From positions 608,001-672,000 of the forward strand of contig CP000071.1 in NCBI GenBank assembly GCA_000002445.1: a stretch of DNA of 64,000 bases, written 5' to 3'. This document shows, one piece after another, positions 18,551 to 39,200 of the stretch; position 1 is the first letter of the stretch; every line of letters starts with the position of its first letter. This DNA comes from Trypanosoma brucei (Eukaryota). A program made the position numbers and the translations under genes. The notes below the pieces were generated by a model. It was given only the letters and a program-made list of their open reading frames with translations. It had not been told where the DNA came from and did not search any database.

Positions 18551-18988
18551 ATGTTTTCGTTACGGGAGATACTTTCGCAACTTCCCTCCGACGGTGCAAC
18601 TAAATGGATACGGGTTGAGAATGTTAAATCCCCCATGTCAAGTTTGGATGTTTCCCAGTTGTTTCCCGATGCAGTGAGTTGGGATTTTTTGTCGAGTGTT
18701 CAAAGGACAGACTATCTCGTCACTTTTCGGAGTGAATCATTCGCTAGAAAAGCGATGCGAAGTGCATGCGGGTTTTCATACCTTGGTGAGAGGCTCAAGT
18801 TTTCATATGCGGAGCCTGGCGACATTGCAGAAGGCGCATCACCCGCGCGAGTGACAATTGCCCACCCCCGTCTATATTTGCTGCCTCCAGAGTTTTCTTA
18901 TGAGGAGCGAGTAGCTGAAGCAGATCGTATTATTGCATCTGTGAGCACAACCGATTCGTATAACAACGCCTGGGTAGATACCTACTAG
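18551..18988 (+). CDS. Hypothetical small protein (145 aa); first gene of the plus-strand unit
   Basis: ORF track. No recognisable domain. Positioned right after the strand switch. Confidence 0.4.
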   Translation: MFSLREILSQLPSDGATKWIRVENVKSPMSSLDVSQLFPDAVSWDFLSSVQRTDYLVTFRSESFARKAMRSACGFSYLGERLKFSYAEPGDIAEGASPARVTIAHPRLYLLPPEFSYEERVAEADRIIASVSTTDSYNNAWVDTY

Positions 18989-19301
18989 TTGGGCGCACTG
19001 CGGTTACAAGCCGTTTCCCCAATTTTTACCTTTTTGTTTCAATGCGTAACCACTTAATGCAGCAAAAGCGCTTGATCTACTTGTTGAGGCTTATAACCAC
19101 TGTGAATTACGCAATCAAGTAGTATCCACACCAGTCTAAGGTTGAGGTGGCATCTCTACTGTCTACCACTCCCCTCTTTAAAGCTGCCGCTGTTGTTGAT
19201 GTTTTCTCTTCATCTTTGGATACACGGCAAAACAAGTGTGGTTTAGATTATCACTTGCAAGTAAAGAACTTAACTGTGTGTGTTTTTTTAAAGCAACTAA
19301 C

Positions 19302-21739: not shown

Positions 21740-23044
21740 ATGGTGGTGGAGTACCTTGGTCCAGCAGACGTGCAGCGTTTGCTTGCGCTCCTTAGCGAAG
21801 GGAATTGTAAGTTTTCTTTCGTAGAGAAAGAATTTAAGGAAACGTTTTCTAAAGACACTTTCGCTAAGGTGTCAAGGGCCATACAACGAATGATTCATGA
21901 TATGATTGCCTCACCTGACGGTGTTGGACTAGTGTCATCTTTTTTCGTTCTTGATGTTATGTGCAAGATGAACTGTGAACAGGCGAAGTCAGCGTTTTAT
22001 GATGCGTTGCTAGAGTTGGAGCGAATCATGCGGCAAGACGTTTGCGTCATGGAGCAGATCAAGTATGCCTCAAAGGAAGCAAAGGAAGGAAGAAGAGCAC
22101 ACGAATCTGTTAATTCAGAGAGATACCGTCTACGTTCAGCGGTGAAGAGTTTTGCCTTTCGGTTACTTGCCAACAGGGTTGCGCCTGATGAAACACCACT
22201 CATGGCCATAAGTGACAAGCAAGAACAAATCGACACCGCCCTAAACGCATGGGAGAGCAACAGTATATGTCTCAAGGAACCCATTGCGGGTGTTGCAGAG
22301 GCGTGGACGCTAGAGGCAGAGAAAAATGCATGTGGAACCCTTTCCAGGATTTCTGCAACCCTTGATAATGGAGGACGGGCTGCGCTGGTACTGAAACCGG
22401 TAACACCCCAACTTCCTTCGTTGTCCCTGGTGTCTGGTGAGCTTCAGTTTCTGCTGCCGGCTTCTCCTCTAAACGATCTCCTTTTAATTAACAGTGAGGT
22501 TCCAACGGAGGAGTGGAAAACTGCAAAAAGAATGGTTGCCGCAGGTTGCAAGGGGCTACTTAATAAAGAGGAGCAGCAAAAATTGCTCCAAACACTTTTG
22601 GCAGGGGACGTCTTTGCGCGTGTTGGAATAAGCAGTGTGGTACTCAGTCGCATGGCCGAACACAATCCAGATGTTGCCGCCTCGCTAATACTGAAGCTTC
22701 CAGCCCAGGAGGCAAACCAATGCGTTCAGAGTATACTAAAGAGTTCTGTGCCATCGGAGCATGTAGAAACTGTCTTGTTACATGCTTCAAAAGTGCTGCA
22801 GCAAGCGAGCTTTCGTGCATACATTACCAACAAGCTTCATCATTTCAAAGAAAAGACGACACTATCCAACGAGGACAAAGATGAGGTGAAAAATTTTGTC
22901 AGGACTCTTCACCAGCTTTTAACAAAAGCGTCGAAAGAAAACAAGGAGTTATACGTTGCTGACACGCTAAAGACTGATATAACTCGACTTTGTGAGAGGT
23001 GTGATATTCCTGAAGTGGTTACGAGATGGGATGAACTAAAGTAA
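21740..23044 (+). CDS. Hypothetical conserved helical protein (434 aa)
   Basis: ORF track. Composition is mostly alpha-helical (L/A/E/K rich). A T15 polypyrimidine tract at 21551-21565 lies upstream. No confident family assignment. Confidence 0.5.
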   Translation: MVVEYLGPADVQRLLALLSEGNCKFSFVEKEFKETFSKDTFAKVSRAIQRMIHDMIASPDGVGLVSSFFVLDVMCKMNCEQAKSAFYDALLELERIMRQDVCVMEQIKYASKEAKEGRRAHESVNSERYRLRSAVKSFAFRLLANRVAPDETPLMAISDKQEQIDTALNAWESNSICLKEPIAGVAEAWTLEAEKNACGTLSRISATLDNGGRAALVLKPVTPQLPSLSLVSGELQFLLPASPLNDLLLINSEVPTEEWKTAKRMVAAGCKGLLNKEEQQKLLQTLLAGDVFARVGISSVVLSRMAEHNPDVAASLILKLPAQEANQCVQSILKSSVPSEHVETVLLHASKVLQQASFRAYITNKLHHFKEKTTLSNEDKDEVKNFVRTLHQLLTKASKENKELYVADTLKTDITRLCERCDIPEVVTRWDELK

Positions 23045-23388
23045 CGAATACTTTCTTTGGTAAACAAACGATGAGTACAGTTCGATAAGGAGGCTGAGAT
23101 GATTTCCCCCCTGTCTGTTGTCGAATGCGCAGAAGCCAAACTGTTGCTCGGTGGTGTCTCAGGCAGCAAAGAGCGTCACATCCATGTCTGTTTAATCCCT
23201 TTCTTCATTCTACTTTTGTCACTTATTCCCCTCCAGACCTTACGTCAACGTGACCGTGGATGCATATATAAATATATACATAGTTTTGAAGGGCACATAA
23301 TTACTGGGCAGTTTTGTTTGCTCGTTCTATACTTGATTGTGAGTCCTGAAGGGACACACCAACAAAAAGACTTCTATTCTGTTGTGGC

Positions 23389-24303
23389 ATGATCGGCGAG
23401 TCAGAAGCATTCGTTAGTTTCGTATATTTAACACCTGCGGAAGGCCTTCCGTGTGAAACTGTTGATCGTTACCCGCAAGCTCAACTGAAGGAAGGAAGCT
23501 CCTGCTCTGAAACGTCTGCCTTGTCTAGGAGCGACGCTTCGGCTGAAGTCACGCCCGGTAAGGAGAATTGGGAAAGCAAGGTGTACGTAAAATTTTTCGA
23601 TGCACTTCGGAAGATAGCAAAAGTGCAGTGGTTTTCCGTTGAGGCTGGTACAAAAATGATGTACTTATACGAAATGATACGCGCCTGGCTCCCAGAGGTG
23701 ACTAACGTAGTGTGTTATACAGCCCATAGTGATAACTGGGGGAGACATTTCCCCCTTATCAAAGATGTGCTGTCACCTGGGACAGACGTTCCAGAAAGGG
23801 TCTTCTGCCAAGAGGTTTTTCTTCCACCGTGCAGAGATATGTGGAACTGGGGCATAGTTAATGTTGTTGTTATGCAACCACATGGTGATTTTACAACTGG
23901 CTATGTTCCCTTGGTGGTGCATGGATTGTTCATGCGCAGTAGGGAAACATTGGAGGAACAGATCAGTCAGATGTGCTGTACTTCGTCTGCAGAGATCAGC
24001 TACATGAGGATGCTGCCCTTGCTTAATTGTTCGATTCGTGACGGACTCGTAGAACTGACATCGTTTTTTCAAGAAAATGAGGAGGTTGAAGCTCTTTCAC
24101 AAGTGGCTGTTGTTTACCCGGCGCTTACAACTGGGGATTTGGTGTGTGCTGATGTTGAAAGTCGAGTAGGGCAAAGATACACTATGCAAGGCATGATAAA
24201 GCGTTGCCATCATAAAAATGGGATTGTTTGCTACGATGTGGAGGACACTGTTCTCGGTTACGTTGCAGAGGGCCTGACATGTGTCCAAGTTTTACCGCTG
24301 TAG
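23389..24303 (+). CDS. Hypothetical protein (304 aa)
   Basis: ORF track. Co-oriented. No domain recognised. Confidence 0.45.
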   Translation: MIGESEAFVSFVYLTPAEGLPCETVDRYPQAQLKEGSSCSETSALSRSDASAEVTPGKENWESKVYVKFFDALRKIAKVQWFSVEAGTKMMYLYEMIRAWLPEVTNVVCYTAHSDNWGRHFPLIKDVLSPGTDVPERVFCQEVFLPPCRDMWNWGIVNVVVMQPHGDFTTGYVPLVVHGLFMRSRETLEEQISQMCCTSSAEISYMRMLPLLNCSIRDGLVELTSFFQENEEVEALSQVAVVYPALTTGDLVCADVESRVGQRYTMQGMIKRCHHKNGIVCYDVEDTVLGYVAEGLTCVQVLPL

Positions 24304-24486
24304 GAAAACGGCGACAGTCAGTTGTTCTGCATAAGTTGTTACGTTATTTCCTTCCTCATTCATCATTTTTACTTACCCGTGTTTGTGGAATGGCTGTCAA
24401 ACGCACATGTCTAGTGCACTCTTTGCTCGTGCATTCGGAACTCTTTTTTCATTGGTGCTTCCGTGCACTGTAGGTAGGTTGAGGAC

Positions 24487-25920
24487 ATGCAAAATAAGTC
24501 TTGGGCCCTGCCTATCAAACAAGTTCCTGTTGTGGAGAAGCTTGACCGGTCTATTGTGTGGAACAATGTTCGCTTATGCTATGAGCAAAAGCTTTTCGGT
24601 CAGATCTCGTGCATTCGGTACAACAATGCTGGGACGGTCGTTGGTTGTGCCTCTACAAACCAGCTCTCCCTTTTACGAGTACCCCAGACAGAGGGCGTGA
24701 TTACTAACGAACAGCGCGAGAGGAAATGTTTCTCGCTTCGGTTCAGGGATGACGACAAAATGACTATTATGTCTGTTGACCAACGTGTTGTTATTCGGTC
24801 AACCGAAACGCTGTTCGAACGGCAGTTTCCTGGCCATGTTAGGGAGGTACGAGACGCTCTTTTTCTTGATCGCCGCAGCTTTGTGTCTGGAAGTGATGAC
24901 ACAACTATAAAACTCTGGGATGTTATGGGCGAGTGTGAACTAGCTGTGGGAAAAGCTCACACCGACTACGTGCGTTGTCTCGAAAACCGCTCACCAGGCT
25001 GCTTCTTCAGTGGCTCTTATGACCACGTTATCAACTTGTGGGACACACGGGCTGGGTTTTCGTGCCCGACTCAGACAAGCGGCCAAGCAGTTCCGAACCC
25101 TGTCGAGTCATTACTTTGCTTGGACACCAACCTACTGGTTTGTGGCGCGTCCGACCAAATAATACTATTCGATATCCGAAAAGGTCTTTCGTTGCCTCTT
25201 ACTCAGGATTCTTACCATACAAAGACCGTGGTTGCGCTTGGCTACTCCAAAAAATACAACGTGCTTCTCAGTGGGTCACTCGATCAACGAGTGAAAATAT
25301 TTTCCCTAGAGAGAGGATGCCCGGACCCTGTTGCCAGTAAAAAGTTTGACGCTCCGGTAACCGCGGTGGCGGTTCACCCTCGTTCGTCCGAATTTGCTGT
25401 GGGCACGGCGAGCGGCGACCTTCGTATCATGAAACTGGGAAGCGCTTCTGATGGAGACGAGATGGGTGGTGGGAAAGACGAGGAAAGTAGGGGGCGCCAA
25501 AAAGATGAGGAGCTCATAGCTATGAAAGTAAATGATGTGCGTCGTCAGCTTGTATCCTATCAGTACAACCGGGCATTGAAGACTGCGCTTTACTCTCGTC
25601 ATGCCGACGTCGTGGTTTCCACTCTTGAAGAACTTCTTCGCCGCGGGGCGTTGCACGTGGCATTGAGTGGTCAAAATGATAGGACGATAGCGCGCATCCT
25701 TCGTTTTGCGCTCGGTTTTATTGACACCCCACAATTCTGTGAGTCAATGATGGTCGTGTTGGACACGATCTTCGATATCTATGGAACGTGCGTGGGCAAA
25801 AGTATATTTTTGCATAGGGAACTGATGAAGGCCCATCGCCGGCTCGGCAGTGTCCTTGCAAACCTCCAAAGAATGGCGGGCACACTGAGTATAATGGAGT
25901 TAATAGTAAATGACGTATAA
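24487..25920 (+). CDS. U3 snoRNP protein UTP15 homologue (WD40 repeats plus UTP15 C-terminal domain), SSU processome
   Basis: The N-terminal half has WD repeats (SGSDDTTIKLWDV, SGSYDHVINLWDT, SGSLDQRVKIFSL). The C-terminus LVSYQYNRALKTALYSRHADVVVSTLEELLRRGALHVALSGQNDRTIARILRFALGFIDTPQFCESMMVVLDTIFDIYG parallels the human UTP15 C-domain (KKYQYSKALDAALKTRSPEVVVAVLEELVRRRGL...ILKFLVRYVTDPRF...). Based on recollection. Confidence 0.7.
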   Translation: MQNKSWALPIKQVPVVEKLDRSIVWNNVRLCYEQKLFGQISCIRYNNAGTVVGCASTNQLSLLRVPQTEGVITNEQRERKCFSLRFRDDDKMTIMSVDQRVVIRSTETLFERQFPGHVREVRDALFLDRRSFVSGSDDTTIKLWDVMGECELAVGKAHTDYVRCLENRSPGCFFSGSYDHVINLWDTRAGFSCPTQTSGQAVPNPVESLLCLDTNLLVCGASDQIILFDIRKGLSLPLTQDSYHTKTVVALGYSKKYNVLLSGSLDQRVKIFSLERGCPDPVASKKFDAPVTAVAVHPRSSEFAVGTASGDLRIMKLGSASDGDEMGGGKDEESRGRQKDEELIAMKVNDVRRQLVSYQYNRALKTALYSRHADVVVSTLEELLRRGALHVALSGQNDRTIARILRFALGFIDTPQFCESMMVVLDTIFDIYGTCVGKSIFLHRELMKAHRRLGSVLANLQRMAGTLSIMELIVNDV

Positions 25921-26172
25921 GGAGCGTTAAACAGGAAGTAATAATCGTGGATTTGCGATGCACCTAGTTGAGTTCTACCCGTCACGCAGCCGTAAGACGT
26001 GGCGGTTCCCTAAGACTTGCTGCGAAATAGTTTTTCGCAGCCGCTTGTTTTTACTGCACCCATCAAACTGATTGCACGGTCTACTATGCTCTATTTAGGA
26101 GGACAATCAAAAACGATAAGGGGTAAAGTTACTTTAAAATAAAGACAAAGTATTGCTAAAGGGAAAAAGAAA

Positions 26173-26853
26173 ATGCTTCGCCGTTTCTCCATGTTGCCAT
26201 TATCTGGTGGCATTGCCCGCCGCTCCTTCTTCCGGACGGCACCACTGTTTAACCTCGACTATCAGGCATACCGAACAGCTACTGTACGCGAAGCAGCGCC
26301 TGAGTTCGCTGGAAAGGCTGTGGTGGACGGAAAGATCAAGGACATCAGCATGAACGACTACAAGGGAAAATATATTGTTCTCTTTTTCTACCCTCTTGAC
26401 TTCACGTTTGTCTGCCCAACGGAAATTGTTTCCTTCTCAGATTCTCACGCTGAGTTTGAAAAACTGAACACGCAAGTCATAGCCGTGTCCTGTGACAGTC
26501 ACTTTTCACATCTCGCGTGGGTTGAAACTCCCCGAAAAAAGGGGGGTCTGGGAGAAATGAAGATTCCCTTGCTATCCGACTTCACAAAGGAGATATCTCG
26601 GGACTATGGGGTGTTGGTCGAAGAACAGGGACTTTCACTGCGCGCTTTGTTCGTCATTGATGACAAAGGGATTCTTCGCCATGTGACCATCAACGATTTG
26701 CCCGTCGGTCGGAATGTTGACGAGGTGCTCCGCGTCGTGCAAGCGTTCCAATACGCCGATAAGACTGGCGACGTTATTCCTTGCAACTGGAAGCCAGGGA
26801 AGGAGACGATGAAGGTGGAAGCAGCGAAGGAATACTTTGAGAAGAATCTATAG
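26173..26853 (+). CDS. mTXNPx: Mitochondrial tryparedoxin peroxidase (typical 2-Cys peroxiredoxin with N-terminal presequence)
   Basis: Peroxiredoxin core [15 protein letters not shown] (peroxidatic Cys) and C-terminal [11 protein letters not shown] (resolving Cys in the IPC context typical of the trypanosomatid mitochondrial isoform). Basic N-terminus [22 protein letters not shown]. Confidence 0.9.
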
Positions 26854-27143
26854 GAAATAACATCTTTCTGGGGCACCGGTGTTGGGGGAACTCTTGTCTC
26901 ACACGGGCATAAACTTACACAAGATTGAATATTTCTGTGTTAACTGTATCTTGGCTTGGCTATTCAAGCCATGGGTATGTAGTTTTGTTTTTGCCCCGGT
27001 CGCGGCCACCTACTGTGCCAGCTTGCTGGTGCAGCTACGATGGGGAGGGAAAAAGGTGAAAAAAATACCCAGTGAGAGGTGACAGTTTTACAGGAGCATA
27101 ATACAACGCCCGTATATATAAATACGTTTTTTTTTTCTTTTAT

Positions 27144-27158
27144 TGTGTGTGTGTGTGT
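27144..27158. repeat. (TG)7 microsatellite preceded by T10
   Basis: ttttttttttcttttattgtgtgtgtgtgtgtt read directly. Confidence 0.8.
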
Positions 27159-27300
27159 TGAGGTGTTGCTCTGAGCTGGGAAAGTGAGATGGGGGAACAA
27201 AACCCGGAGCGGCTATGCTAAAGAGCCCGCAAAATTTTCGGAAGTGTGGTCTGTTATTTGTGTCAACGTTTGATTTTTTGTATGCGTGTAACCTCTTTCC

Positions 27301-27320
27301 CCCCGTTTTATTTTCTTCAG
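27301..27320 (+). promoter_or_regulatory. Polypyrimidine tract plus AG: probable spliced-leader acceptor for the cyclophilin gene
   Basis: ccccgttttattttcttcag lies immediately 5' of ATG 27332. The upstream in-frame Met at 27215 sits before this signal and the stretch between is F/L-rich, implying non-coding. Confidence 0.5.
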
Positions 27321-27331
27321 GTAAGGAGTCA

Positions 27332-28120
27332 ATGCCCAAGGTAAGCGTCCCACCTAAGACGGAGCGCCACGGGAAGATCGAGGCGCCAGAGACTAATAAT
27401 CCCAAAGTCTTCTTTGATGTGTCTATAAATGAGAAAGCAGCGGGACGGATTGTTATGGAATTGTACGCGGACACTGTGCCGAGGACAGCGGAGAATTTCC
27501 GTGCACTATGCACGGGCGAGAAGGGTCGTGGGAAGAGTGGAAAGCCGCTGCATTACAAGGGGTGCATTTTCCACCGAGTTATACCAGGTTTCATGCTACA
27601 AGGGGGTGACATCACACGTGGAAATGGCACCGGTGGAGAGTCCATATACGGCACAACGTTTCGTGACGAGAGTTTTGCCGGAAAAGCCGGAAAGCATACC
27701 GGACTCGGTTGCCTGTCCATGGCTAACGCGGGACCCAACACCAACGGTTCGCAGTTTTTCATCTGTACAGCCAACACACCGTGGTTGAACGGAAAGCACG
27801 TTGTGTTTGGTCGTGTTACTGAGGGAATTGACGTGGTGAAGAGCATTGAACGGTTGGGTTCCGATTCGGGGAAAACGCGCGGTCGAATCATCATCGCGAA
27901 TTGTGGTGAGCTGCAGACGCAGAAGGAAGGTGCAGCCAAAAAGGAGAAGGTTAAGGCGAAGGAAGGAAACAATGCAGGGAAGCTGTCCACCATTGTCGAA
28001 GGGACCGGTGGAGCAAAGCGTCCACGTGAAGATGTGGAGGATTTGGAAGAACGGAAGAAACGCATCCGAGAGAAGAGGGAGAGGATAGCGAAACTCCGCG
28101 CCCAGGCGGAAGAGAAATAA
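27332..28120 (+). CDS. Cyclophilin-type peptidyl-prolyl cis-trans isomerase with a C-terminal Lys/Glu-rich tail
   Basis: Classical cyclophilin blocks: [93 protein letters not shown]. The catalytic Arg/Phe/Gln/His/Trp positions are conserved. Start chosen at 27332, after the splice signal. Confidence 0.85.
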
Positions 28121-28420
28121 GCGGGAAAAACCGACGTATGGTGGTGCTGTATGAAGGGCATTATCTTGAAATGAACACGCCACGGGGAGGGGGATATCAA
28201 GATCACGTTTAACACTTATTTGATTACTATTTCACCAGGCAACCTTCTTGACCCCTCCTTTTCACCTTAACAGTCTAAAGGAAAAGGATGTGGGAGGCAT
28301 CATCGCGATCGCTTTATTCCCACAGACCCTTTCCCACCTGTGACATCCATCTCTGTCTTTCCCTTTCCTCATCCGCATCATTCCTTTCTTTAGTAAATCA
28401 GATATATCATTGCTGGTCCC

Positions 28421-28981
28421 ATGCTGAGGGGAAGGTGGGGTATTTTCCAATGTACGTTGATATTCCGCGCGAGCTTTCATGATGTGAGGTCGAAGAAAAT
28501 GTGGGAGCGGCGACAAAGGGAGTTGCAAAAAGCTGGGGAGCAGATGGAATTAGATGAGGATGTGACGCCACCACCAAGTATACCGCGATCATCGAGGGTA
28601 GCAACCCGTGACGAAAGCTGTGAAGGGGATAAGGAAGCCATGTTGGCGCTTCTCCAAGAGCAATGGCAGCGCCGAGTTGCCCGCCGAGAAGCTTTTATCC
28701 AGTGGCAAGCAGGGCAGCGTGAAAAGGGTGCGGCACAGCGGCTGGTGCGCCAGGCCAAAACACAAGAGAAATTCAAGTCTCATCGTTACCACACACAAAG
28801 TGGGAGGATCATTTCTGTGGGCCTCGCCCGGGAAGACGGCACAAGTAGTAATTCTGACGCCTCTGTTGACTTGTACTCGGTGGGAATGTGCGGCTCCCAG
28901 CTGCGTTCTGCTGACTTTCTTGTCCAACCTGGTTCTCGAAACACCCATGGAACCGTCAACCTTGTTCTTCAGAAGCGGTGA
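28421..28981 (+). CDS. Hypothetical small charged protein (up to 186 aa; possible start at Met 28499, MWERRQRELQK...)
   Basis: ORF track. Gln/Arg/Glu-rich helical composition. Low confidence that it is expressed as annotated. Confidence 0.35.
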   Translation: MLRGRWGIFQCTLIFRASFHDVRSKKMWERRQRELQKAGEQMELDEDVTPPPSIPRSSRVATRDESCEGDKEAMLALLQEQWQRRVARREAFIQWQAGQREKGAAQRLVRQAKTQEKFKSHRYHTQSGRIISVGLAREDGTSSNSDASVDLYSVGMCGSQLRSADFLVQPGSRNTHGTVNLVLQKR

Positions 28982-29306
28982 GGTTGCATTTGTCAAAGGG
29001 GAGAGAAACCACGGTCTGCCCCACGCTACTTGTAGCACTTTTTTCTTCTTCCACACTTTGTTATGTCGAAAAGAAGTGGGGGAAACTACACATATGTGTG
29101 TGCTACCTGCCGGAGGCTGCGTAAAGCTACAACGATGGACTATTCTTTAGCTTTAATACCGTTCTTGTTTTCTCTTTTTTTCTCGTGGCACTTCCCCATT
29201 TTTTTGCCCCTATTTTGTGGGGGCAAAGTGATTTGGTGGCAGTTACTGTCATCGTGCTAACCACATTCTAAGCGCGACCAAAGTCAAGCTAACGTGCATA
29301 TATGGG

Positions 29307-30308
29307 TTGCACATGTTCTCCAAGTTCCTGATGAACGTTAAGGGTGTGACGCCCCGTGGGAGCGATTGGGCCAATCGACTCGGTCCTGTGGCTCTCTTTG
29401 GTTACGGGGCAGGCATGCCACGGCGGGCTCCACTCCTAGACTTTTTTCTTCAATCACCACGCGACTGTGACCATTACGCGGAGTTAACTATTCATGATAA
29501 GGGCCCAATTGAGTGCCCTCCTGAAACTGTTATGTTTATGCCCGTTTTAAATTGTGGTCAAATGTTGGATGAAGCAGCGGGAACAGAGACTCCCACAAGC
29601 GACGAGTGGTACCTGGGATCACTCGAGGCGTCAACGGAGCTGTTAGAAAAGGGCTATGTTCCGGTCAGCGTGGGCGGGGATGGCTCAGCGACGCTTTCAA
29701 TGGTTGAGGCGTACAAGCGACTGTTCCCATCTGACGACATTGTTATTGTTCACTTTTCGGCACGTCCATCTGTGAGCGACCCACGGTCGCCGCTGAGAGT
29801 GCTTTTGGATAAGGGGTTGCTAAAGGGCGTTGTTAGCGTGGGTAACCGTCAAGTGTCATCGGAGGACAGGAAGGTTCGGAAGCTTCATAAGATGTTTTAC
29901 ATGGATATGCACGCCATATACTCCAAGGGACTTTTTTGCATACGTGATATCAGGAATGACTACCCCGTTTTCATAAGCATTGATGCCAGCGTGTTAGACC
30001 CCGCGTTTGCCCCCGCCGTTGACAGCCCCGTTGCTGGAGGGCTCTCGACACGCGATTTGCTTCACATAATGAACGGCATCCGTGGACCCAAGGTGGTAGG
30101 AATTGACGTTTACGGCTACAACCCCGACCTTGATGTGTACAGGAAGGACAATGTCGGCCTTACCGCAATTGCGTTATCGAAAATAATAAAAGAGGGAATA
30201 CTTAAGGCATACAGCATATCGACTCACACGGAGGAAGAGGGGATGGAACGGGTTAAGATGCTACAGCGTCAGGGGACCGTCTCTGAAAATCCGTACCCCG
30301 ATCATTGA
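29307..30308 (+). CDS. Arginase/agmatinase-fold (ureohydrolase) protein with degenerate metal-binding motifs; likely a non-catalytic arginase-like pseudoenzyme
   Basis: 333-aa ORF alignable to the arginase family (VSVGGDGSATL ... SIDASVLDPAFAP ... GIDVYGYNPDLD). Canonical Mn ligand motifs are altered: GGDHS is GGDGS; DAHxD is IVHFSARPS; SxDxDxxDP is SIDASVLDP. Confidence 0.8.
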   Translation: MHMFSKFLMNVKGVTPRGSDWANRLGPVALFGYGAGMPRRAPLLDFFLQSPRDCDHYAELTIHDKGPIECPPETVMFMPVLNCGQMLDEAAGTETPTSDEWYLGSLEASTELLEKGYVPVSVGGDGSATLSMVEAYKRLFPSDDIVIVHFSARPSVSDPRSPLRVLLDKGLLKGVVSVGNRQVSSEDRKVRKLHKMFYMDMHAIYSKGLFCIRDIRNDYPVFISIDASVLDPAFAPAVDSPVAGGLSTRDLLHIMNGIRGPKVVGIDVYGYNPDLDVYRKDNVGLTAIALSKIIKEGILKAYSISTHTEEEGMERVKMLQRQGTVSENPYPDH

Positions 30309-30853
30309 GTCATTCAAGGCTGCGTCAGTTTCGGATCTCGCTGCGGTACCGCTTACCGCGATATCACTGTTTCGGGAGTGGTGTCGTATTATTTTTTTTT
30401 GTTACCGTTCTTGGACTTCGTGGTTCTTATTTTGCTCAGGTCTTACTTCCTTTCGTTTAGTGATCCGCGACTTCTTACTCCAGTAGCTACATCTTGTTAT
30501 TGGATCCATGCACGTTTACTCCCACATTTGCACAGGTTCTTACTCTTTCCCATTGTCTCCCTTCGTCCATCAAATTCAACTTTTTGTTAAACACCGGATA
30601 CTCTTCTGCTTTACTACCCACCTGCAATTATCATTCGATCCTCAAAATAGCCACGTAGTGATAAAACATTATTTATCAGTTTTCAGGTTGTGGAGGATTC
30701 AAGAGGAAATATTTAAGCACAAGGGACGGTGGAGAGAAGAAAGGTATAGCAATAGCATAGAGTAGGGTCATATACTCATATATTTCGCCAGGGAGAAACT
30801 AAGGGGAGGCCTGTAAAAGATATACAAGGGACACATCTTGAAAGGGGCTGCAA

Positions 30854-32119
30854 ATGGCCGATTCAAATGCTGTCGTGGAACACCGGGAGGAGTCTGATGT
30901 AAACATCCAACTTGAGCAACGGAGAAGTCAGGTGCGGGGCCTCGAGATCCAACTGACGAGAAAGGAGGCCGAGCTCCGCCGCGCAAAGGAAGAACAGGCG
31001 CTTCTGAAGGAGCTTCACGCGGTGAATGAGGTGACGCTTCGCAAGAAGCAGCAGAAGGAGTCCGATGGCGCTGGAAGTCGTCTCAAGATCCCTCGGGAGT
31101 CGTTGGATGAAATTCTTCGCCTCGAAGGTGAAATTAAATGTGCGAACAGGCGCACCGTTGAGCTGCAAAATGAGGCCAGCACAACGTCCGTCCAGCTGAA
31201 CGATGTGGAAAAAGGAATTGAAAGCATATGTAACCGTACAGCCCTGGTGAAGCAGGTAACCGGGTGGATAAGTTCCGGCAGTCAATCAAGCAGTGTAGTT
31301 GGAGTGTCGAGCGAGTGGATAATGAGAAAAAAGGTTTTGACGGAGCTTCAGGATGAACAGAACGCCATTAAGGCATTGACAGCGCTATTGGACAAGCAGG
31401 CTGAATTTTACACAAAGCGGCTGGAAGAACAGAGGACCAAGGACGAGGAATTCGCCGAGGCACAGCGCGTCCTTCGTGAGAAAACTGTTCAGTACGAAAA
31501 TCTGCTGGGTGAACTGAAGTCTTTCGAACGCCTTACGAAGAAGAAGGAGCGCCTTCTCGATACCGCTAGTGGGAAGGTGACCGATGATTACAAGACCGTT
31601 AAGATGATTGAGGGAGACAAAAAAGTTTTGTACGCCAACTTGTCCAAACTTCAGGAGGCAAATGTAAGGAACTCAAAGTCAATCCTCTCCCTTGAGATGC
31701 GTCTACGACAGCTGGAGACCAAACTCGAGGCAGTAAACCTCTTCCTGCAGCAGGTGTTCGCGGACGTTGAAGAAGAGGACGAGCACATCGAAAATATACC
31801 TGAGGGTGCCACTGAGGTACCACTTGAGCAGTTCGAGGAACTTTGCCGGGAGCTAGAACTCTCTCGTGCCACGCTTCTTCATCGTGAAGAGCAACTCAAT
31901 GCCGGTGACGCGAAGGTTGAGCAACTAGAGCGGAAGACCACAATTCTCGAAAATGCCATCGCTTCTCACGCTGTATCAGCTCAACTTCAGGTGAAGGGTA
32001 AAGAGAGAGAGTTCGAGACGTTAATGTCACATGTGGATTATATGAAGGCGGAGTTTGATGAAGAATATAAAAGGCTTACGAAGGAAAACGCTGCACTTGT
32101 AAGTAAGTTGGGTAAGTAG
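30854..32119 (+). CDS. Coiled-coil protein (421 aa), hypothetical
   Basis: Heptad-rich, E/K/L/Q-dominated sequence throughout (LEIQLTRKEAELRRAKEEQALLKELHAVNEV...). No enzymatic motifs. Confidence 0.55.
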   Translation: MADSNAVVEHREESDVNIQLEQRRSQVRGLEIQLTRKEAELRRAKEEQALLKELHAVNEVTLRKKQQKESDGAGSRLKIPRESLDEILRLEGEIKCANRRTVELQNEASTTSVQLNDVEKGIESICNRTALVKQVTGWISSGSQSSSVVGVSSEWIMRKKVLTELQDEQNAIKALTALLDKQAEFYTKRLEEQRTKDEEFAEAQRVLREKTVQYENLLGELKSFERLTKKKERLLDTASGKVTDDYKTVKMIEGDKKVLYANLSKLQEANVRNSKSILSLEMRLRQLETKLEAVNLFLQQVFADVEEEDEHIENIPEGATEVPLEQFEELCRELELSRATLLHREEQLNAGDAKVEQLERKTTILENAIASHAVSAQLQVKGKEREFETLMSHVDYMKAEFDEEYKRLTKENAALVSKLGK

Positions 32120-32604
32120 TGTAACTGTGCGCTCACCCTTCCCGTTTACTCTTTCGTATATTACTGTTATCGCACCTCTTGAACCAGTGAAATGTGACCG
32201 CAACTTGAGGGGGGAGAGAGTAAAGTAGTGAGTAAAAGGAAGAGATCAATTAGATGTGAACAGACTCACGCTGCCCAGCAGCCGCTGCTGGACACGTATT
32301 ACTTCAGAGGGTGTAAAAAGTATTTTTATTTTTGTATGTGTAACCCCTTTGGTGTTTACCTTTTTTTTTAAAAAATGCTGCCCTCCTCGGCATTGCACTT
32401 CCGTTCGGATGCCACTCTTTTGTCGGTTCCTGTTGTCCAGTAGCCTTTTATCCCCCCCTTTCAGCATCATTTTTTTCTCCCACACGTTGTTATACGGTTG
32501 AATTTGTATTACTTCTCGATCACATGGACTCTGAATATGTCTTCCCTTCTCAATAACTTCTCTTTGCATGCCTTTACCCCCAATATCTGTAGTACGTCCC
32601 GGCG

Positions 32605-33360
32605 ATGGCGGCTCTCCACGAGGAAGTGCGGACTCGCTACCACATCGCTGTGTGCACGCGGTTTGTTGAACGAGTTTGCGTAGATACCCCTAGTCCTACA
32701 GCGGAGTTTATTTACAAGATGGCTCTTAACGAAAACCTGAAGGATATTACGGATGTATGCACACTTCCTCGTGTGTCTCTTTTGCAGCTTAACTCTCTAC
32801 CCTGCTCTTTAGTGTTGCAGGTGAGCAGTTCCAGGGACGTGACTCAGCCGCTGCGGCCCTGTTTGGATGCAAGCGAGGAGGAACCGATCTTGACAGCAGC
32901 TTTTCAAAAAAACCTCAAAACACGTCTTCTGCGGCTTGTTCTAAGTGATGGGCACTCTGAGGTACCCGCTGTTGAGTTGTCTACGCTCAGCGTGTTTCGT
33001 TCCATACCAGTTCCCGGGGAAAAGCTACTCGTAAAGGAAGGTGCCGAAATAAAAAATGGTGCTATTATAATGACAGACGATTGTGTTGTGCCCCTCGGTG
33101 GTGGGGTACAACAACTGAAAAAGGAGGTACTCATCCAACAGAGCAGAAGCGACGCGCCACGATTCCAACCCCTGCGGTTTGGTGTTTCCACACCAGCAGG
33201 GGCCCGTGCGGCAGCTGGGCCACTCTCCGATTCTTTCGATAGGGATCGTGGGGGAAATGTTGGGCGTGCGAGGGGAAGAGGATTAGGCTACCGCGGGGGA
33301 AGGGGGTCAGGGTATCGGGGCCAACGACCTCATAACCACCACTATAACCGACCTCAGTAG
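32605..33360 (+). CDS. Hypothetical protein with a C-terminal RGG/RG repeat tail (putative nucleic-acid binding) and an N-terminal domain of possible OB-fold/DUF1767-like type
   Basis: C-terminus DRDRGGNVGRARGRGLGYRGGRGSGYRGQRPHNHHYNRPQ. The N-terminal 170 aa are a globular region. Domain assignment is tentative. Confidence 0.45.
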   Translation: MAALHEEVRTRYHIAVCTRFVERVCVDTPSPTAEFIYKMALNENLKDITDVCTLPRVSLLQLNSLPCSLVLQVSSSRDVTQPLRPCLDASEEEPILTAAFQKNLKTRLLRLVLSDGHSEVPAVELSTLSVFRSIPVPGEKLLVKEGAEIKNGAIIMTDDCVVPLGGGVQQLKKEVLIQQSRSDAPRFQPLRFGVSTPAGARAAAGPLSDSFDRDRGGNVGRARGRGLGYRGGRGSGYRGQRPHNHHYNRPQ

Positions 33361-34644
33361 TGATCACCAAACTAATTGAATGCATGATTGCATTTGCGGT
33401 TACCGTGGTGATGCTTGACCTCTATCTGGGAAATGGCGTGTTCGTGAAGGAGACTTTGTCTAGAAACGGATGTGTCGTTCTAAAGAAGGGGAAGGGGGAC
33501 GACCGGCCACATTGCTATGTCTGGGCAGTATCCCCACTGCGGCACTGCGGCAGCCCAGTCCTTGCCATTTTGCATGTTGTTCTTCTCACACATACTTCTG
33601 ACCGTGGCCGAACTGAGGTGGAGGAAGCCACTGGGGCATTTATTGAAGTAGCTGGATTATCCGTTACGTGGTGCTCATCGTCGCTAGATGGAACACAGTA
33701 GCGAAGGTGAAATAATTTGATTCTGAGGGCAAAAGGTTACCCTCGTTACCCTTTGTTTCCGGTTTGGACGTTCTGCGCTTGTTCTCCTCGGTACCCGAAC
33801 TGTAAGAAGCTTTCAAGGGGCTCGCTGCCTTGGAGGAACACAAAACCCGGCAACTAAAGCCTCCCCAGTGTGCGGCGCTTTTGATGGAGAACTGTCAGAT
33901 TATCGATGCGGTCGCTTGACTTCACCATTGTTTGTGGAGGTGTGGGGGTGATGGGCCAATTAAGTCGGTTGGCCGCGCAGCATTACACTACGTTCGCTTA
34001 CAGAAGTGCGACACATACGGGGTGTCGCGCAAGCGTTAGCACATCCATTGAGGTTGTTGGTGTAATGCGTGTATGCTCCTTTCTTGGGTGTATTGCCCCC
34101 AAGTGTTGAGACATGTAGTTTTGTATGACCAAACGCTTACGCATTGGAGGGAGGGGGTGCGACATGTTCTGTGCGATAAGTGGAACGGAGACCGAATAGA
34201 GCCTGGTGCGATGCGTGATCGATGGGATAGTTCTGGTTCTTTCTTTCCCCGATCATACAGTCATCCTGCGGTGGGCAGCAGAGCCAACATGAAGGTTACG
34301 CTCGGACTAGCCCCCTGATGGTATCACCATCTGAACTGTTCCCCAGTCTTTTGGTATGCTTTCCTTTCCTTGCAAGCGCTTTTGCGTTTGCTGCTGTAAC
34401 TGCATACTTTTGTTCGCGTGGGTGATACACACCACATAATTGTTGCCAGCACTCTGTCTTTATCTTCTGTTTGCCCAAGTCGGTGAGCTAAGTGAGGCAA
34501 TTTGTTGCAGGTAAAGTGACAAAAAGGCAAGCAGAAGGGTAGGTGTCTAATAAGGTGAGGTAATTCTAAAATTGGGTTGGGAAGGCTTTATAGGACGAAC
34601 GGGCTAAATAAATACCAACTGAACGGCCGTTTTGTTCCCCCGGA

Positions 34645-35754
34645 ATGAGGGCCGTCATTCTTGTTGGAGGATATGGCACCAGGCTGCGGCCGCTAACCCT
34701 TACCACACCGAAGCCCTTGGTACCATTCTGTAACAAATCCATAACCCTCCGGCAACTGGAAGCACTCCGTGACGTTGGCGTTACACAGGTGGTGTTAGCG
34801 GTGGCTTATCGGTCAGAGGTGATGGCGGAAGTTACCCAGAAATGGGCACGAGAGCTCGGCATTTCCGTCGTATGTTCCCTGGAGGTGGAGCCACTTGGCA
34901 CCGCTGGGCCGCTGGCTCTTGCTCGGGAGTACCTTTTGCAGGACGACAAACCGTTCTTCGTCTTCAACGCCGATGTTATCTGCACTTTTCCGCTTCAGAA
35001 GCTTCTCGATTTCCATCTGAGTCACGGGAGGGAAGGAACCATTGCGGTGACGAAGGTGAAGGATTGGAGAAAATATGGGGTCGTGGTGCACGACGAGGTC
35101 ACGGGTGCAATCAAGCAATTTGTGGAGAAGCCCCCCGAGTTCGTTGGAGACAGGATAAACGCCGGCATATACATATTTAACAAAAGCATCCTTAACCGCA
35201 TCAAGCTAGAGAAGACGTCCATCGAGCGACAAGTGTTTCCAATGATGGCAAGCGATTCACAACTAAGTGCTTTTCACCTTGAGGGGTTTTGGATGGATAT
35301 CGGTGTGCCAAAGGACTACATAGAAGGTATGGGTAAGTATCTTGATTCACTTGCTGGTACGTCGACCGAAGTGGGGTTCAGCTGTGATGAGCGCAGGGTA
35401 TCCGATCGGAGCTACGTGCTCAAGGGCTGTGTGATGATTCACCCCACGGCGAAAATTGGTGAGGGATCCGTTATCGGTCCGCACGTTTCGATCGGACCAG
35501 GTTGCGTCATTGGGCCCTGCTGCCGCATCCAGCGTACCGCCATACTGGATAACAGCACTGTTGGTCGCGGGACTCTAATAGAGTCCAGCATCGTGGGATG
35601 GAATGGAAGGATTGGTTCGTGGTGCAGGATAGTCAACGATACGGTACTTGGTGAGGATGTCCGTGTGGATGATGGAAAGTACCTGAATGGTGTTAAAGTG
35701 CTTCCAAACAAGGAAATTACCCAAAATCACCCCGAACCAGAAGTGGTCATGTAA
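34645..35754 (+). CDS. GDP-mannose pyrophosphorylase (mannose-1-phosphate guanylyltransferase)
   Basis: N-terminal nucleotidyltransferase motif MRAVILVGGYGTRLRPLTLTTPKPLVPFCNK and a C-terminal left-handed beta-helix with hexapeptide repeats (IGEGSVIGPHVSIGPGCVIGPCCRI). 369 aa is typical for GMPP. Confidence 0.9.
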   Translation: MRAVILVGGYGTRLRPLTLTTPKPLVPFCNKSITLRQLEALRDVGVTQVVLAVAYRSEVMAEVTQKWARELGISVVCSLEVEPLGTAGPLALAREYLLQDDKPFFVFNADVICTFPLQKLLDFHLSHGREGTIAVTKVKDWRKYGVVVHDEVTGAIKQFVEKPPEFVGDRINAGIYIFNKSILNRIKLEKTSIERQVFPMMASDSQLSAFHLEGFWMDIGVPKDYIEGMGKYLDSLAGTSTEVGFSCDERRVSDRSYVLKGCVMIHPTAKIGEGSVIGPHVSIGPGCVIGPCCRIQRTAILDNSTVGRGTLIESSIVGWNGRIGSWCRIVNDTVLGEDVRVDDGKYLNGVKVLPNKEITQNHPEPEVVM

Positions 35755-36202: not shown

Positions 36203-39200
36203 GTGGGTGGTGGCGAAGGTGCCACCCCGCTTCTCTATCAGCTTCATGAGGTGTTGCAGGAAAAACAAGCAGACCGCCGTCTTCAGCTTCTTTGCTTGTT
36301 TCTGGAACATTTCCTGGCTGAGTGCCCAAATGCCGGCGCCGCGCCATTCAAAAAATACTTTGGCACAGGAGCCACGCTTATCGAGTCGCTTGTTTGTTTG
36401 GTTACGTCGCTTATCGAGTCTGTTCTCTTCGGCGCACATGTGCGTGAGGGTGTCACCATGCTGGCGGAGAGTCCTGGTTTCGCAAAGGCCCTTTCTACAC
36501 TGACACTCCTAGGAACGGAAAGTTTCTACAGCACAACTTTGGAATGGAGAAAGCGCGTTACGGATATTATTCACATGACCTCCGATGAACAACTTCCAGC
36601 ACTACTTATGAGGGTATACGATGTACTCTTGCAAGTGTTGCTTGATGACGGAAGGAAGCAGCCGAACTACCTGGAGCTTGCTTCAACAGCTGTTGCTGTA
36701 ATGTGCTTCGTTCATCGGCTGTTCCTACACTACAGGGAAGAACGGCTGTTGTTGGATGAGTATCGCCGCTGGGTATTTCTCCGCGCAGTTGTTCGTACTT
36801 TTGAGTTCACGCTTTCTAATCACTTCGAAGGAAGTGCAGCACTATCAGATGCATCTCGGGGGGTTATTGCTTTGATGTTTTTACCAGATGCAGATTTGAG
36901 CAGACTTTCAGTGGGCGAAGCTGAGTTCAGCGCGGAGGACGCATCTTTTCAACGGGCGCTTCATTTGGCCCATTCGTTTATGCCCTCTGCGAAAGATTTA
37001 GGTGCGTTTTTGGAATGTTTGGTGTGTTGTATCGAAAGTTTGCTAAGCGTTCGTAGTGTCTTGGGCCACCCGGAAGTGGAAACTACAGACTTCGGGGTTG
37101 TGTTTTCAGTTCTTTTCCCTCTTCAAAGTGCTATGGCTCAGCGCTATGAACACGCAGAGAGGCTGTTTCGGTCTATTTGTTCAATAGCTTCCGCGATACG
37201 CGGGCCGCCTTCGGCCACAACATCGTCGGGAACTGCGAAAGGTGTGGCTAATTTCTTCTCTGCAGTCTTCACACCGTCACAGGTTAACACGATACAGCGG
37301 TTTGTAAGCTCCGTTGGTGCATCTGGATCACCGAAGCGTAGTCCTATCACATGTCGCGAGGCTGTGGAATGCGTAACGAGCTTTTTCGTTTGCGCAACCG
37401 AAGAAATGGCTATAGAGGCATGTGCTCGCCCTCTGTTTGACTTGGTTTGTCTTGATGATGTGGAGGAGGAGCTGGTCCGCTTTGTGCTCTATTCATGCAC
37501 CGAAAATCTCCTATTACTCAAACCGTGTCAACTACAACGTGTAACGCAGTTGCTGCTCACCGCCGTAAAGCGCGGCATTGCCATCTCAGAGACCGTTTCC
37601 TCGGTTGCAGCAGTGCTAAGGAAGGAATCCAAAGCGGTGGTTGAGGTGAAGATTTTTGTGCTAGAGTTTCTTAGCTTTTATTCAACGGCAGTAAGTCATG
37701 CATCTGAGGTAGAAACACTGCATAGCGTCTTCAAGTGGACGCTTGAGGAGGTGACATCGATAAGCGACTGGGTCCAACCGCAGGCAGTTTCATATCTGGC
37801 AGCGGTGACGCAATTCGTGAGATCGGCACTCGCATCCGCACCGTTGGTAGCACTACTGGCAAGGCTTGAATGGCCCCACGAGGTGCTGCTTCTGCTGTTG
37901 CGTGCTCATGGTGATGGTGTAAGGGAAGTAGCAGTCACATTTCGGAATCTCTTTTGTTCAATGGTATTCAACGAGGGGCAGTTTGTGGATGTTCTTATTA
38001 GCGAATTGAGGGCAATGGGCGGCCAGAGCCCCTGGCCTTCACAAATTTCCATCCTGTTGTGTGTATTCGTGTACCTGCTGCAGGATAAACGGGGTGCATG
38101 GGCTGCGATAAGAAGTAACGACATCTACGTGTGCCTTTACCTGCTTCACTACCTGGACCAAAGTACCTGCATTGAGGAGGATGCGCATCTTATTGGAACA
38201 TCGTTGGCATTGTTGTTGTCGCACCTGCGGTGGAGTGAAGCTGGAGGAATTGTCGCACACTATGTTGATGCTGTCAGAACCCCTTGGATGGTCCAACTTC
38301 TGGTTGATCTTGCCACAGGGTTTTACACCACCACAAAAAACTTGATTGCTGCCGATGCTATGCGTGTAGAAACTGTAAAAACGATGACGCCGGGCAGTCG
38401 ACTGTGCTGTGAAGTAGTGGGGGGGTTTTCCATACCTTTGTCCTGCCGCTTCGAGCACACCTTTCCTTTTGGTGTGCTTCTTCGTTGGATAGTGGAACCA
38501 GGAAATCAATCCGGCGATTGGCAGAAAAACTTGATGGAGCTCCTATCTGGCATGCTCCACCGCCGCTGCCTACCTCTCGTTGACGACGCGTTCACCTCTA
38601 CGGTGGTGAAACAAAAACTTTATGAGCTGCTTCCATACGTGGCCGATGTTTCGAGAAGGGATGTGCTCGCATTGCTTTCGTCTTCGAAGGAGTATCTAAC
38701 ACTTGAAGATGTCTCGAACGCTCAAGCCATCTGGGAGAGACTAGCATACGGTAGAATCGGGGAAGGTTTGCAGCATGAATTCCACGATTATATCACATGG
38801 TACGGAAACGGCGCATTGCATGGGGTGCTGCGGGGTGTGCAAAAGGGTTGTTCTCTCAACGACCGCTTCACGACGGCTGTGTGGGTGTATTGGGAATCAT
38901 GCATAGGGACGGATACGGGTTCGATGATTCAGCTTTGGGAGTTGCTCTGGCCGGGCGCTGAGGGCTCTACGAAAGTGTCATTGTCGGTTGACACGATGCA
39001 AAGAAAGGTCATTTTTGCAGTTTCCCCGGCGGACGAAGCGCAACAAGTTGTCACCCTTCCCTTCATTCCGCCAGGCCAGTGGATGCACGTAGTAGTGAGC
39101 TTTTTATGCAACCGATTATTTTCCTCCACTGTGACGGCGTTCTACGATGGAGTTCGCACCCTTCAGACCGATATAACCGTACCTGGGTCCCACACATTCC

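What the first reader, a model, noticed from the sequence alone, without database searches (positions are those of the whole stretch)
29307..30308. Arginase-fold protein with all three manganese-ligand motifs mutated (pseudoenzyme)
The ORF aligns with arginase/agmatinase, but the signature motifs read GGDGS (His to Gly), VHFSA (DAHxD lost) and SIDASVLDP (second Asp to Ser). These changes remove most binuclear Mn ligands. Trypanosomes lack a urea cycle. An arginase-like protein that evolved without the Mn cluster has been described structurally for T. brucei; this ORF appears to be that type, and its real ligand and function remain open.
Basis: partly seen in the sequence, partly recalled or inferred. 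Interest (0 to 1): 0.55.

Follow-up and report, generated by a model that had tools for sequence, protein, structure and literature searches.

The report
Known metal-free arginase-like protein TbARG

Summary
The observation and the interpretation both hold, but the finding is already known. The coding sequence runs from the ATG at 29313 to the stop at 30308 on the + strand and encodes 331 aa. The protein is 100% identical to the crystallised T. brucei "arginase" (PDB 4RHI/4RHJ/4RHK) and to UniProt Q581Y0, which is Tb927.8.2020.

I aligned it with rat arginase I, whose sequence I checked against 1RLA. The ligand positions read H101→G124, D124→S149, H126→R151, D128→S153 and D234→S226. Only D232 (D224) is kept. 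The guanidinium-binding Glu277 is Gly268.

New here:
- The gene lies in a ten-gene block that is syntenic in T. vivax, T. cruzi and Leishmania mexicana.
- It is the second most conserved of those ten genes (68–80% identity; pN 0.12–0.22 while synonymous sites are saturated).
- Former ligand positions 151, 153 and 226 are among its most variable residues.
- Distant relatives down to about 31% identity also lack most or all of the ligands, and they share N- and C-terminal segments specific to this family.

It is therefore a selected, metal-free protein with the arginase fold, not a decaying gene. Its function is still unknown in the literature up to 2024. Novelty: already known. Interest: low.

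The parts
29313..30308 (+). Coding sequence of TbARG / Tb927.8.2020 (331 aa plus TGA stop), an arginase-fold protein
   Evidence: 100% identity to PDB 4RHI chains and to Q581Y0_TRYB2. PF00491 at 111 bits. Coordinates checked by translation.
29673..29687 (+). GGDGS (residues 121-125). It corresponds to arginase GGDHS, with ligand His101 replaced by Gly124.
   Evidence: Alignments A1 and A2 with rat arginase I. Gly in 20 of 23 family members in A1; Asn in P0045, Ala in P0039.
29751..29771 (+). HFSARPS (residues 147-153). It corresponds to arginase (W)VDAHTD: Asp124->Ser149, His126->Arg151, Asp128->Ser153.
   Evidence: H147 and S149 are invariant in 23 family members. Positions 151 and 153 are in the 95th percentile of variability.
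29976..30002 (+). SIDASVLDP (residues 222-230). It corresponds to arginase SFDVDGLDP: Asp232 kept as Asp224, Asp234->Ser226.
   Evidence: Position 226 is S, N, D or G among orthologues, in the 80th percentile of variability.
30105..30125 (+). DVYGYNP (residues 265-271). It corresponds to arginase DIMEVNP, with the guanidinium-binding Glu277 replaced by an invariant Gly268.
29313..29474 (+). N-terminal segment specific to this family (residues 1-54). It lies outside the Pfam arginase match and is conserved in the clade (R15, W19, G24, P25, A27, D53).
   Evidence: The Pfam match covers residues 55-295 only. Active ureohydrolases align only from about residue 90-110 onward. Invariant residues.
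30198..30305 (+). C-terminal tail specific to this family (residues 296-331, ...ISTHTEEEGMERVKMLQRQGTVSENPYPDH). It is strongly conserved and carries no PTS1-like ending.
   Evidence: The tail is conserved down to relatives of 31-46% identity and absent from canonical agmatinases and arginases. 25% of its positions are invariant.
29160..29219 (+). Pyrimidine-rich tract about 100-150 nt upstream of the ATG, a likely trans-splicing signal (inference only)
   Evidence: Read directly from the sequence. Not tested.

Best explanation
The ORF is Tb927.8.2020 (TbARG), the published metal-free arginase-like protein of Trypanosoma brucei. Shown: it keeps the arginase/ureohydrolase fold, but it has lost five of the six ligands of the binuclear Mn centre and the Glu that holds the guanidinium group. 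The loop that carries the catalytic His141 also has no equivalent here. It therefore cannot carry out metal-activated hydrolysis of arginine or agmatine. Shown: it is not decaying. It is a syntenic single-copy orthologue in all trypanosomatids examined, it evolves as slowly as an essential peroxidase next to it, and it belongs to an older clade that lacks most or all of the ligands and has its own conserved N- and C-terminal segments. Inferred, at roughly 50-60%: it works as a non-catalytic pseudoenzyme. On this reading the oligomeric arginase scaffold and the conserved C-terminal tail are kept to bind a partner protein or a small ligand, and the old metal site is no longer the functional centre, because three former ligand positions now vary freely.
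For: - Identity: 100% to PDB 4RHI/4RHJ/4RHK and to Q581Y0. The gene name and 'lacks key arginase residues' come from PMC3341325. [quoted passage not shown]
- Ligand table.
- Synteny: WD40, peroxiredoxin, cyclophilin, hyp186, ARG-like, cc421, RMI1 and GDP-mannose pyrophosphorylase occur in the same order in T. b. gambiense, T. vivax, T. cruzi and L. mexicana.
- Constraint: protein identity is 80%, 78.5% and 68% to T. vivax, T. cruzi and L. mexicana. pN is 0.13, 0.12 and 0.22, while pS is 0.81-0.87 (saturated). Only the peroxiredoxin in the ten-gene block is comparable. The 3 nucleotide differences from T. b. gambiense are all synonymous.
- Old site relaxed: positions 151, 153 and 226 are in the 80th-95th percentile of variability, whereas H147, S149 and G268 are invariant.
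- Discrete clade: 17 cluster representatives at E<=1e-30, 12 of them aligning from the first 10 query residues to within 10 of its end. After a score gap come generic ureohydrolases that align only from about residue 90-110 to 295. The deep members lack most or all of the ligands.
Against: No partner or ligand is known, and nothing here identifies one. The loops that form the pocket (GGD, HFSA, S-x-D...LDPAFAP, GGLSTRE) remain highly conserved, which would also fit a remodelled active site. The primary paper could not be read in the library. Its knockout and metabolomics results (non-essential in cultured bloodstream forms) are therefore quoted from my memory of the abstract only. The invariant residues could not be mapped onto the crystal coordinates with these tools.
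Confidence: 0.9

Rival explanations
1. Neofunctionalised enzyme. The remodelled pocket catalyses a different, metal-independent (or differently metallated) reaction on an unknown substrate.
For: The segments that build the arginase active-site cleft are the most conserved parts of the protein. H147, S149, S222, D229, P230, G242-L244, R247, H251 and G268 are invariant in 23 relatives, and D224 is kept in 20 of 23 (Asn in the other three). Purifying selection is as strong as for a neighbouring essential enzyme.
Against: Three of the six former ligand positions, and the Thr246 equivalent, are among the most variable residues, so no conserved replacement site sits where the metals were. The crystallised wild-type protein is described as lacking a binuclear metal centre, and the function of such proteins is described as elusive. 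No activity has been reported in the literature searched.
Confidence: 0.25
2. Prozyme-type partner. The dead arginase-fold subunit activates or stabilises a catalytically active partner, as MetCb does for MetCa in metformin hydrolase.
For: There is a precedent within the same superfamily: metal-free MetCb is required for the activity of Ni-MetCa. Trypanosomatids are known for dead-paralogue activators such as AdoMetDC prozyme and deoxyhypusine synthase (my own knowledge, not tested here).
Against: There is no second arginase-family gene in the 64-kb window (tblastn). T. brucei is reported to have no canonical arginase. The family is also kept in species with and without an active arginase, for example Leishmania versus Trypanosoma. 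From my memory of the 2015 abstract, the protein crystallises as a homo-oligomer.
Confidence: 0.1
3. Active arginase or agmatinase, as the database names say ('arginase, putative'; 'agmatinase, putative').
For: Only the source annotations and family membership by Pfam.
Against: Five of six Mn ligands and Glu277 are absent. Published work reports no arginase activity and no role in making ornithine.
Confidence: 0.01
4. Decaying relic or pseudogene of a lost urea-cycle or polyamine enzyme.
For: Loss of catalytic residues in a parasite that imports ornithine.
Against: The ORF is intact and of equal length (329-333 aa) in the ten named trypanosomatid genera examined. pN is about 0.12-0.22 against saturated pS, making it the second most conserved of ten syntenic genes. 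Only synonymous differences separate it from T. b. gambiense.
Confidence: 0.01

Closest known systems
TbARG, arginase-like protein of T. brucei (PDB 4RHI/4RHJ/4RHK; Hai, Kerkhoven, Barrett & Christianson, Biochemistry 2015, 54:458; gene Tb927.8.2020)
   Same: It is the same protein: 331 of 331 residues identical.
   Different: Nothing, apart from the His-tag residues of the crystallised construct.
Kinetoplastid 'agmatinase-like protein' orthologues (T. congolense, T. vivax, T. cruzi, Leishmania, Phytomonas, Angomonas and others)
   Same: Syntenic orthologues at 65-83% identity. They share the N- and C-terminal extensions and have G, S and G at the His101, Asp124 and Glu277 positions.
   Different: The former ligand positions vary. 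Several lineages have His at the His126 position (Herpetomonas, Angomonas, Strigomonas, Phytomonas). The Leishmania group, Novymonas and Phytomonas keep Asp at the Asp234 position.
Canonical binuclear-Mn arginase (rat arginase I, PDB 1RLA)
   Same: Same fold and superfamily. Shared motifs are GGD, S-x-D, LDP and GGLS-x-R.
   Different: About 24% identity. 5 of 6 metal ligands, Glu277 and the His141 loop are missing. TbARG adds N- and C-terminal segments.
Agmatinase-type ureohydrolases (plant arginase 6VSU/6VSS, 3-guanidinopropionase 3NIP, E. coli-type agmatinase 7LOL)
   Same: These are the nearest active relatives by sequence among solved structures (E 3e-15 to 1e-11). Animal arginases match only around residues 214-277.
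   Different: They keep GGDH, DAHxD and DxD (see representatives P0068-P0076) and lack the family-specific termini.
MetCb, the metal-free arginase-fold subunit of Ni-dependent metformin hydrolase
   Same: An arginase-family protein that lost its metal ligands yet is retained for a function. The MetCaCb paper cites TbARG as an earlier example of this kind.
   Different: MetCb has an adjacent active paralogue (MetCa) and forms a hetero-hexamer with it. No such partner is evident for TbARG.
Leishmania arginase (PDB 4ITY)
   Same: Same superfamily and the same group of organisms.
   Different: It is a paralogue, not an orthologue: E=2.7e-8 over residues 175-276 only. T. brucei has no gene syntenic with it (PMC3341325). 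TbARG ends in -PDH rather than a PTS1-like tripeptide.

Membership tests
Arginase/ureohydrolase superfamily (Pfam PF00491) | Significant sequence match to the family profile and fold | tested here: met
   111 bits against a cut-off of 22, E=9e-32, residues 55-295. The solved structure itself is in the PDB as 4RHI.
Catalytically active arginase/agmatinase | Six ligands of the binuclear Mn(II) centre (rat H101, D124, H126, D128, D232, D234) | tested here: not met
   G124, S149, R151, S153, D224, S226: only one of six is kept.
Catalytically active arginase/agmatinase | Guanidinium-binding Glu277 and the catalytic His141 loop | tested here: not met
   Glu277 is Gly268, invariant in the family. The His141 loop aligns to a gap or to Pro157. 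The alignment of that loop is uncertain.
Catalytically active arginase/agmatinase | Measured hydrolysis of arginine or agmatine, and bound metal | not testable with these tools
TbARG-type metal-free arginase-like clade | Identity or orthology with the crystallised T. brucei protein | tested here: met
   100% identity. Conserved ten-gene synteny in four species.
TbARG-type metal-free arginase-like clade | Family-specific N-terminal segment and C-terminal '...QG.....YPDH' tail, with most or all metal ligands lost | tested here: met
   17 cluster representatives at E<=1e-30, 12 of them aligning from the first 10 query residues to within 10 of its end, separated by a score gap from generic ureohydrolases. 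Motifs and ligand table.
Pseudoenzyme-enzyme pair (MetCa/MetCb type, or trypanosomatid prozyme type) | A catalytically active paralogue or partner that requires the dead subunit | tested here: inconclusive
   No second PF00491-like sequence in the window, and T. brucei is reported to lack a canonical arginase. The whole genome and the protein's interaction partners could not be examined here.

The most novel reading that the evidence does not exclude
The TbARG family may be an ancient clade of strongly constrained, metal-free arginase-fold proteins that reaches beyond the trypanosomatids. Unnamed metagenomic and transcriptomic relatives at 31-46% identity already lack most or all of the ligands. 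Under this reading the family has a conserved non-hydrolytic job: either it binds or regulates a partner through its conserved C-terminal tail and arginine-rich invariant surface, or it is a metal-independent enzyme. Finding that job would explain why every kinetoplastid keeps the gene.
Probability: 0.3. Interest if true: 0.5.

Novelty: already known. Interest (0 to 1): 0.12.

Why it matters
The finding itself adds nothing new: the protein, its missing manganese ligands and its crystal structure were published in 2015. It still matters in three modest ways.

1. It confirms that T. brucei has no route of its own from arginine to ornithine. This underlies the parasite's dependence on ornithine import and its sensitivity to eflornithine.
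2. The conservation data gathered here show a strongly selected protein, not a relic, so the unanswered question of its function is a real one.
3. The Leishmania orthologue, annotated as 'agmatinase-like', lacks four of the six ligands and Glu277. Pathway diagrams that include an agmatinase step in Leishmania rest on an annotation the sequence does not support.

Tried and rejected
- The primary paper (PMC4303290) is not held in the library. Its content is taken from citing papers and from the PDB mutant sequences. The knockout and metabolomics statements come from my memory of the abstract and are marked as such.
- Formal dN/dS could not be calculated because synonymous sites are saturated in all three species pairs (pS above 0.75). 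I therefore compared pN and protein identity with nine syntenic neighbours as an internal control.
- I tried to name the organisms behind the deep relatives (P0045-P0047 and others). The cluster look-up gave no organism names, and the only contig for P0046 had no retrievable DNA.
- Literature searches for a later functional assignment found none (Tb927.8.2020, TbARG, agmatinase-like protein plus Leishmania, ureohydrolase plus pseudoenzyme, agmatinase plus Leishmania plus Trypanosoma).
- A search for a second arginase-family gene in the window found none.
- I considered and rejected three readings: active arginase/agmatinase, decaying pseudogene, and orthologue of Leishmania arginase.
- I did not run structure prediction or fold search, because an experimental structure of the identical protein exists.

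Full report
**The observation**

The window holds an intact + strand ORF at 29307-30308. Its translation contains the three quoted strings: GGDGS (29673-29687), HFSARPS preceded by V (29751-29771) and SIDASVLDP (29976-30002). The mechanical ORF begins with TTG-CAT. The first ATG is at 29313, and the 331-aa product from that ATG is the sequence held in the public databases. The stop is TGA at 30306-30308. A pyrimidine-rich tract lies about 100-150 nt upstream, as expected for a trans-spliced trypanosome gene; this last point is inference only.

**Identity**

The protein matches Pfam PF00491 (Arginase) at 111 bits, E=9e-32, over residues 55-295. A search of all PDB chains gives 100% identity over the full length to 4RHI/4RHJ/4RHK, deposited as 'Arginase'. 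An exact-sequence look-up returns AAZ12969.1 / Q581Y0_TRYB2 (T. brucei brucei TREU927), the identical proteins of T. b. gambiense and T. equiperdum, and the 4RH* chains.

The other PDB entries of the series differ from the window protein only at S149D/S153D (4RHQ) and S149D/R151H/S226D (4RHL). These are engineered restorations of the metal ligands.

The DNA around the gene (window 19313-40308) is 99.85% identical to T. equiperdum OVI and 99.4% identical to T. b. gambiense chromosome 8. Two Rfam hits to the snoRNA 'TB8Cs3H1' elsewhere in the window are consistent with a trypanosomatid origin. PMC3341325 names the gene Tb927.8.2020. It describes the gene as the orthologue of a second arginase-related gene of Leishmania that 'lacks key arginase residues'.

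**Ligand positions**

I recalled the rat arginase I sequence from memory and verified it as 100% identical to PDB 1RLA/1D3V. Two MAFFT alignments give the same register (A1 with 25 relatives; A2 with deep relatives and canonical agmatinases). The register was extracted by script.

| Rat arginase I | TbARG |
|---|---|
| His101 | Gly124 |
| Asp124 | Ser149 |
| His126 | Arg151 |
| Asp128 | Ser153 |
| Asp232 | Asp224 (kept) |
| Asp234 | Ser226 |
| Glu277 (binds the guanidinium group) | Gly268 |

The loop carrying His141 has no counterpart in TbARG. Canonical relatives in the same alignments (P0048, P0068-P0070) have all six ligands (P0076 has Glu at the Asp128 position) and all keep Glu277, so the register is sound.

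**What the literature says**

The primary paper is Hai, Kerkhoven, Barrett & Christianson, Biochemistry 2015, 54:458 (PMC4303290). It is not held in the library. Citing papers state the following:
- 'The protein lacked arginase activity', and the labelled ornithine seen in cells comes from serum arginase.
[quoted passage not shown] From my memory of the 2015 abstract, not verified here: the knockout is viable in cultured bloodstream forms and leaves arginine and ornithine metabolism unchanged. Five further searches found no later functional assignment.

**What was added here**

1. *Orthology by synteny.* The block WD40 protein, peroxiredoxin, cyclophilin, 186-aa protein, ARG-like, 421-aa coiled-coil protein, RMI1 and GDP-mannose pyrophosphorylase has the same order and orientation in T. 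b. gambiense, T. vivax, T. cruzi and L. mexicana chromosome 23.

2. *Constraint.* Against T. vivax, T. cruzi and L. mexicana the protein is 80.1%, 78.5% and 68.0% identical, with pN of 0.132, 0.124 and 0.221. Synonymous sites are saturated (pS 0.81-0.87). Among the ten syntenic genes only the peroxiredoxin is comparably conserved. Cyclophilin, GDP-mannose pyrophosphorylase and the WD40 protein all evolve faster. The three nucleotide differences from T. b. gambiense are all synonymous. This excludes a decaying pseudogene.

3. *The former metal site is no longer constrained.* In 23 family members, positions 151, 153 and 226 have 8, 8 and 4 residue types and fall in the 95th, 95th and 80th percentiles of variability. 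The Thr246 equivalent is in the 97th percentile. By contrast H147, S149 and G268 are invariant, along with many arginines (R15, R179, R186, R189, R211, R214, R247, R257, R277, R313).

4. *A discrete, older clade.* An exhaustive HMMER search of 1.84 billion cluster representatives gives 17 proteins at E<=1e-30; 12 of them align from the first 10 query residues to within 10 of its end. After a score gap come generic ureohydrolases that align only from about residue 90-110 to 295. The deep members (31-46% identity, organisms unnamed) share the N-terminal segment and the C-terminal '...QG.....YPD(H)' tail, and lack most or all of the ligands. The loss therefore predates the trypanosomatids.

5. 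*Nearest active relatives.* Among solved structures these are the agmatinase-type enzymes: plant arginase 6VSU, 3-guanidinopropionase and agmatinase, at E 3e-15 to 1e-11. Animal arginase and Leishmania arginase are more distant (E about 1e-8, partial). The gene is thus a paralogue of Leishmania arginase, in agreement with PMC3341325.

**Mechanism**

Shown: the protein cannot be a metal-dependent guanidino hydrolase, and it is under strong selection.

Inferred: the most likely role is non-catalytic. The oligomeric arginase scaffold with its conserved C-terminal tail would be retained to bind a partner or a small molecule. In rat arginase the C-terminal tail mediates trimer contacts (established knowledge, not tested here). 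I put this at about 50-60%.

The main rival is a remodelled, metal-independent enzyme (about 25%). It is supported by the continued conservation of the pocket-forming loops. It is weakened by the free variation at the old ligand positions.

A prozyme-type activator of an active enzyme, on the precedent of MetCb in metformin hydrolase, is possible (about 10%). However, no active paralogue is evident: none is in the window, and T. brucei is reported to lack a canonical arginase.

**Verdict**

The feature is already known: it is a published crystal structure of the identical protein, with the same conclusion. Interest as a scan finding is low. The residual interest lies in the still-unknown function of a strongly conserved protein family.

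Noticed in passing
window 16100-19240: All long ORFs from 2.5 to 16.1 kb are on the - strand, and all from 19.2 to about 57.8 kb are on the + strand. This is a divergent strand-switch region, the usual site where trypanosome polycistronic transcription starts.
   Followed up: no
window 46057-46119 and 47719-47781 (+): Two matches with identical scores (80.5 bits, full model length 1-63) to the trypanosomatid H/ACA snoRNA family TB8Cs3H1 (RF01550), 1662 bp apart. They indicate a tandemly repeated snoRNA cluster.
   Followed up: no
window 21740-35754 (+); loci L001, L004, L005, L006: A ten-gene block is collinear in T. brucei, T. vivax, T. cruzi and L. mexicana chr 23: 434-aa and 304-aa hypothetical proteins, WD40, peroxiredoxin, cyclophilin, 186-aa hypothetical, ARG-like, 421-aa coiled-coil, RMI1 and GDP-mannose pyrophosphorylase. 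L. mexicana has one extra methyltransferase gene inserted before the pyrophosphorylase.
   Followed up: partly
window 36203-45307 (+): A very long ORF (3034 aa by the mechanical ORF call) corresponds to a BEACH-domain protein, PF02138 in the syntenic loci.
   Followed up: no
L006 10001-10999 (L. mexicana orthologue, P0022): The Leishmania 'agmatinase-like protein' has G, S, R and A at the His101, Asp124, His126 and Asp128 positions and Gly at Glu277. A Leishmania review nevertheless draws an agmatine-to-putrescine step via 'agmatinase' on the basis of transcripts (PMC5775291). If that refers to this gene, the step is not supported by the sequence.
   Followed up: partly
window 27215-28120 (+): The cyclophilin ORF is 301 aa in the window and in T. 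b. gambiense. It is called as 251-262 aa in T. equiperdum, T. vivax and T. cruzi (290 aa in L. mexicana), so the N-terminal about 40 residues may come from an upstream ATG rather than the real start. It carries a Lys/Glu-rich C-terminal extension.
   Followed up: no
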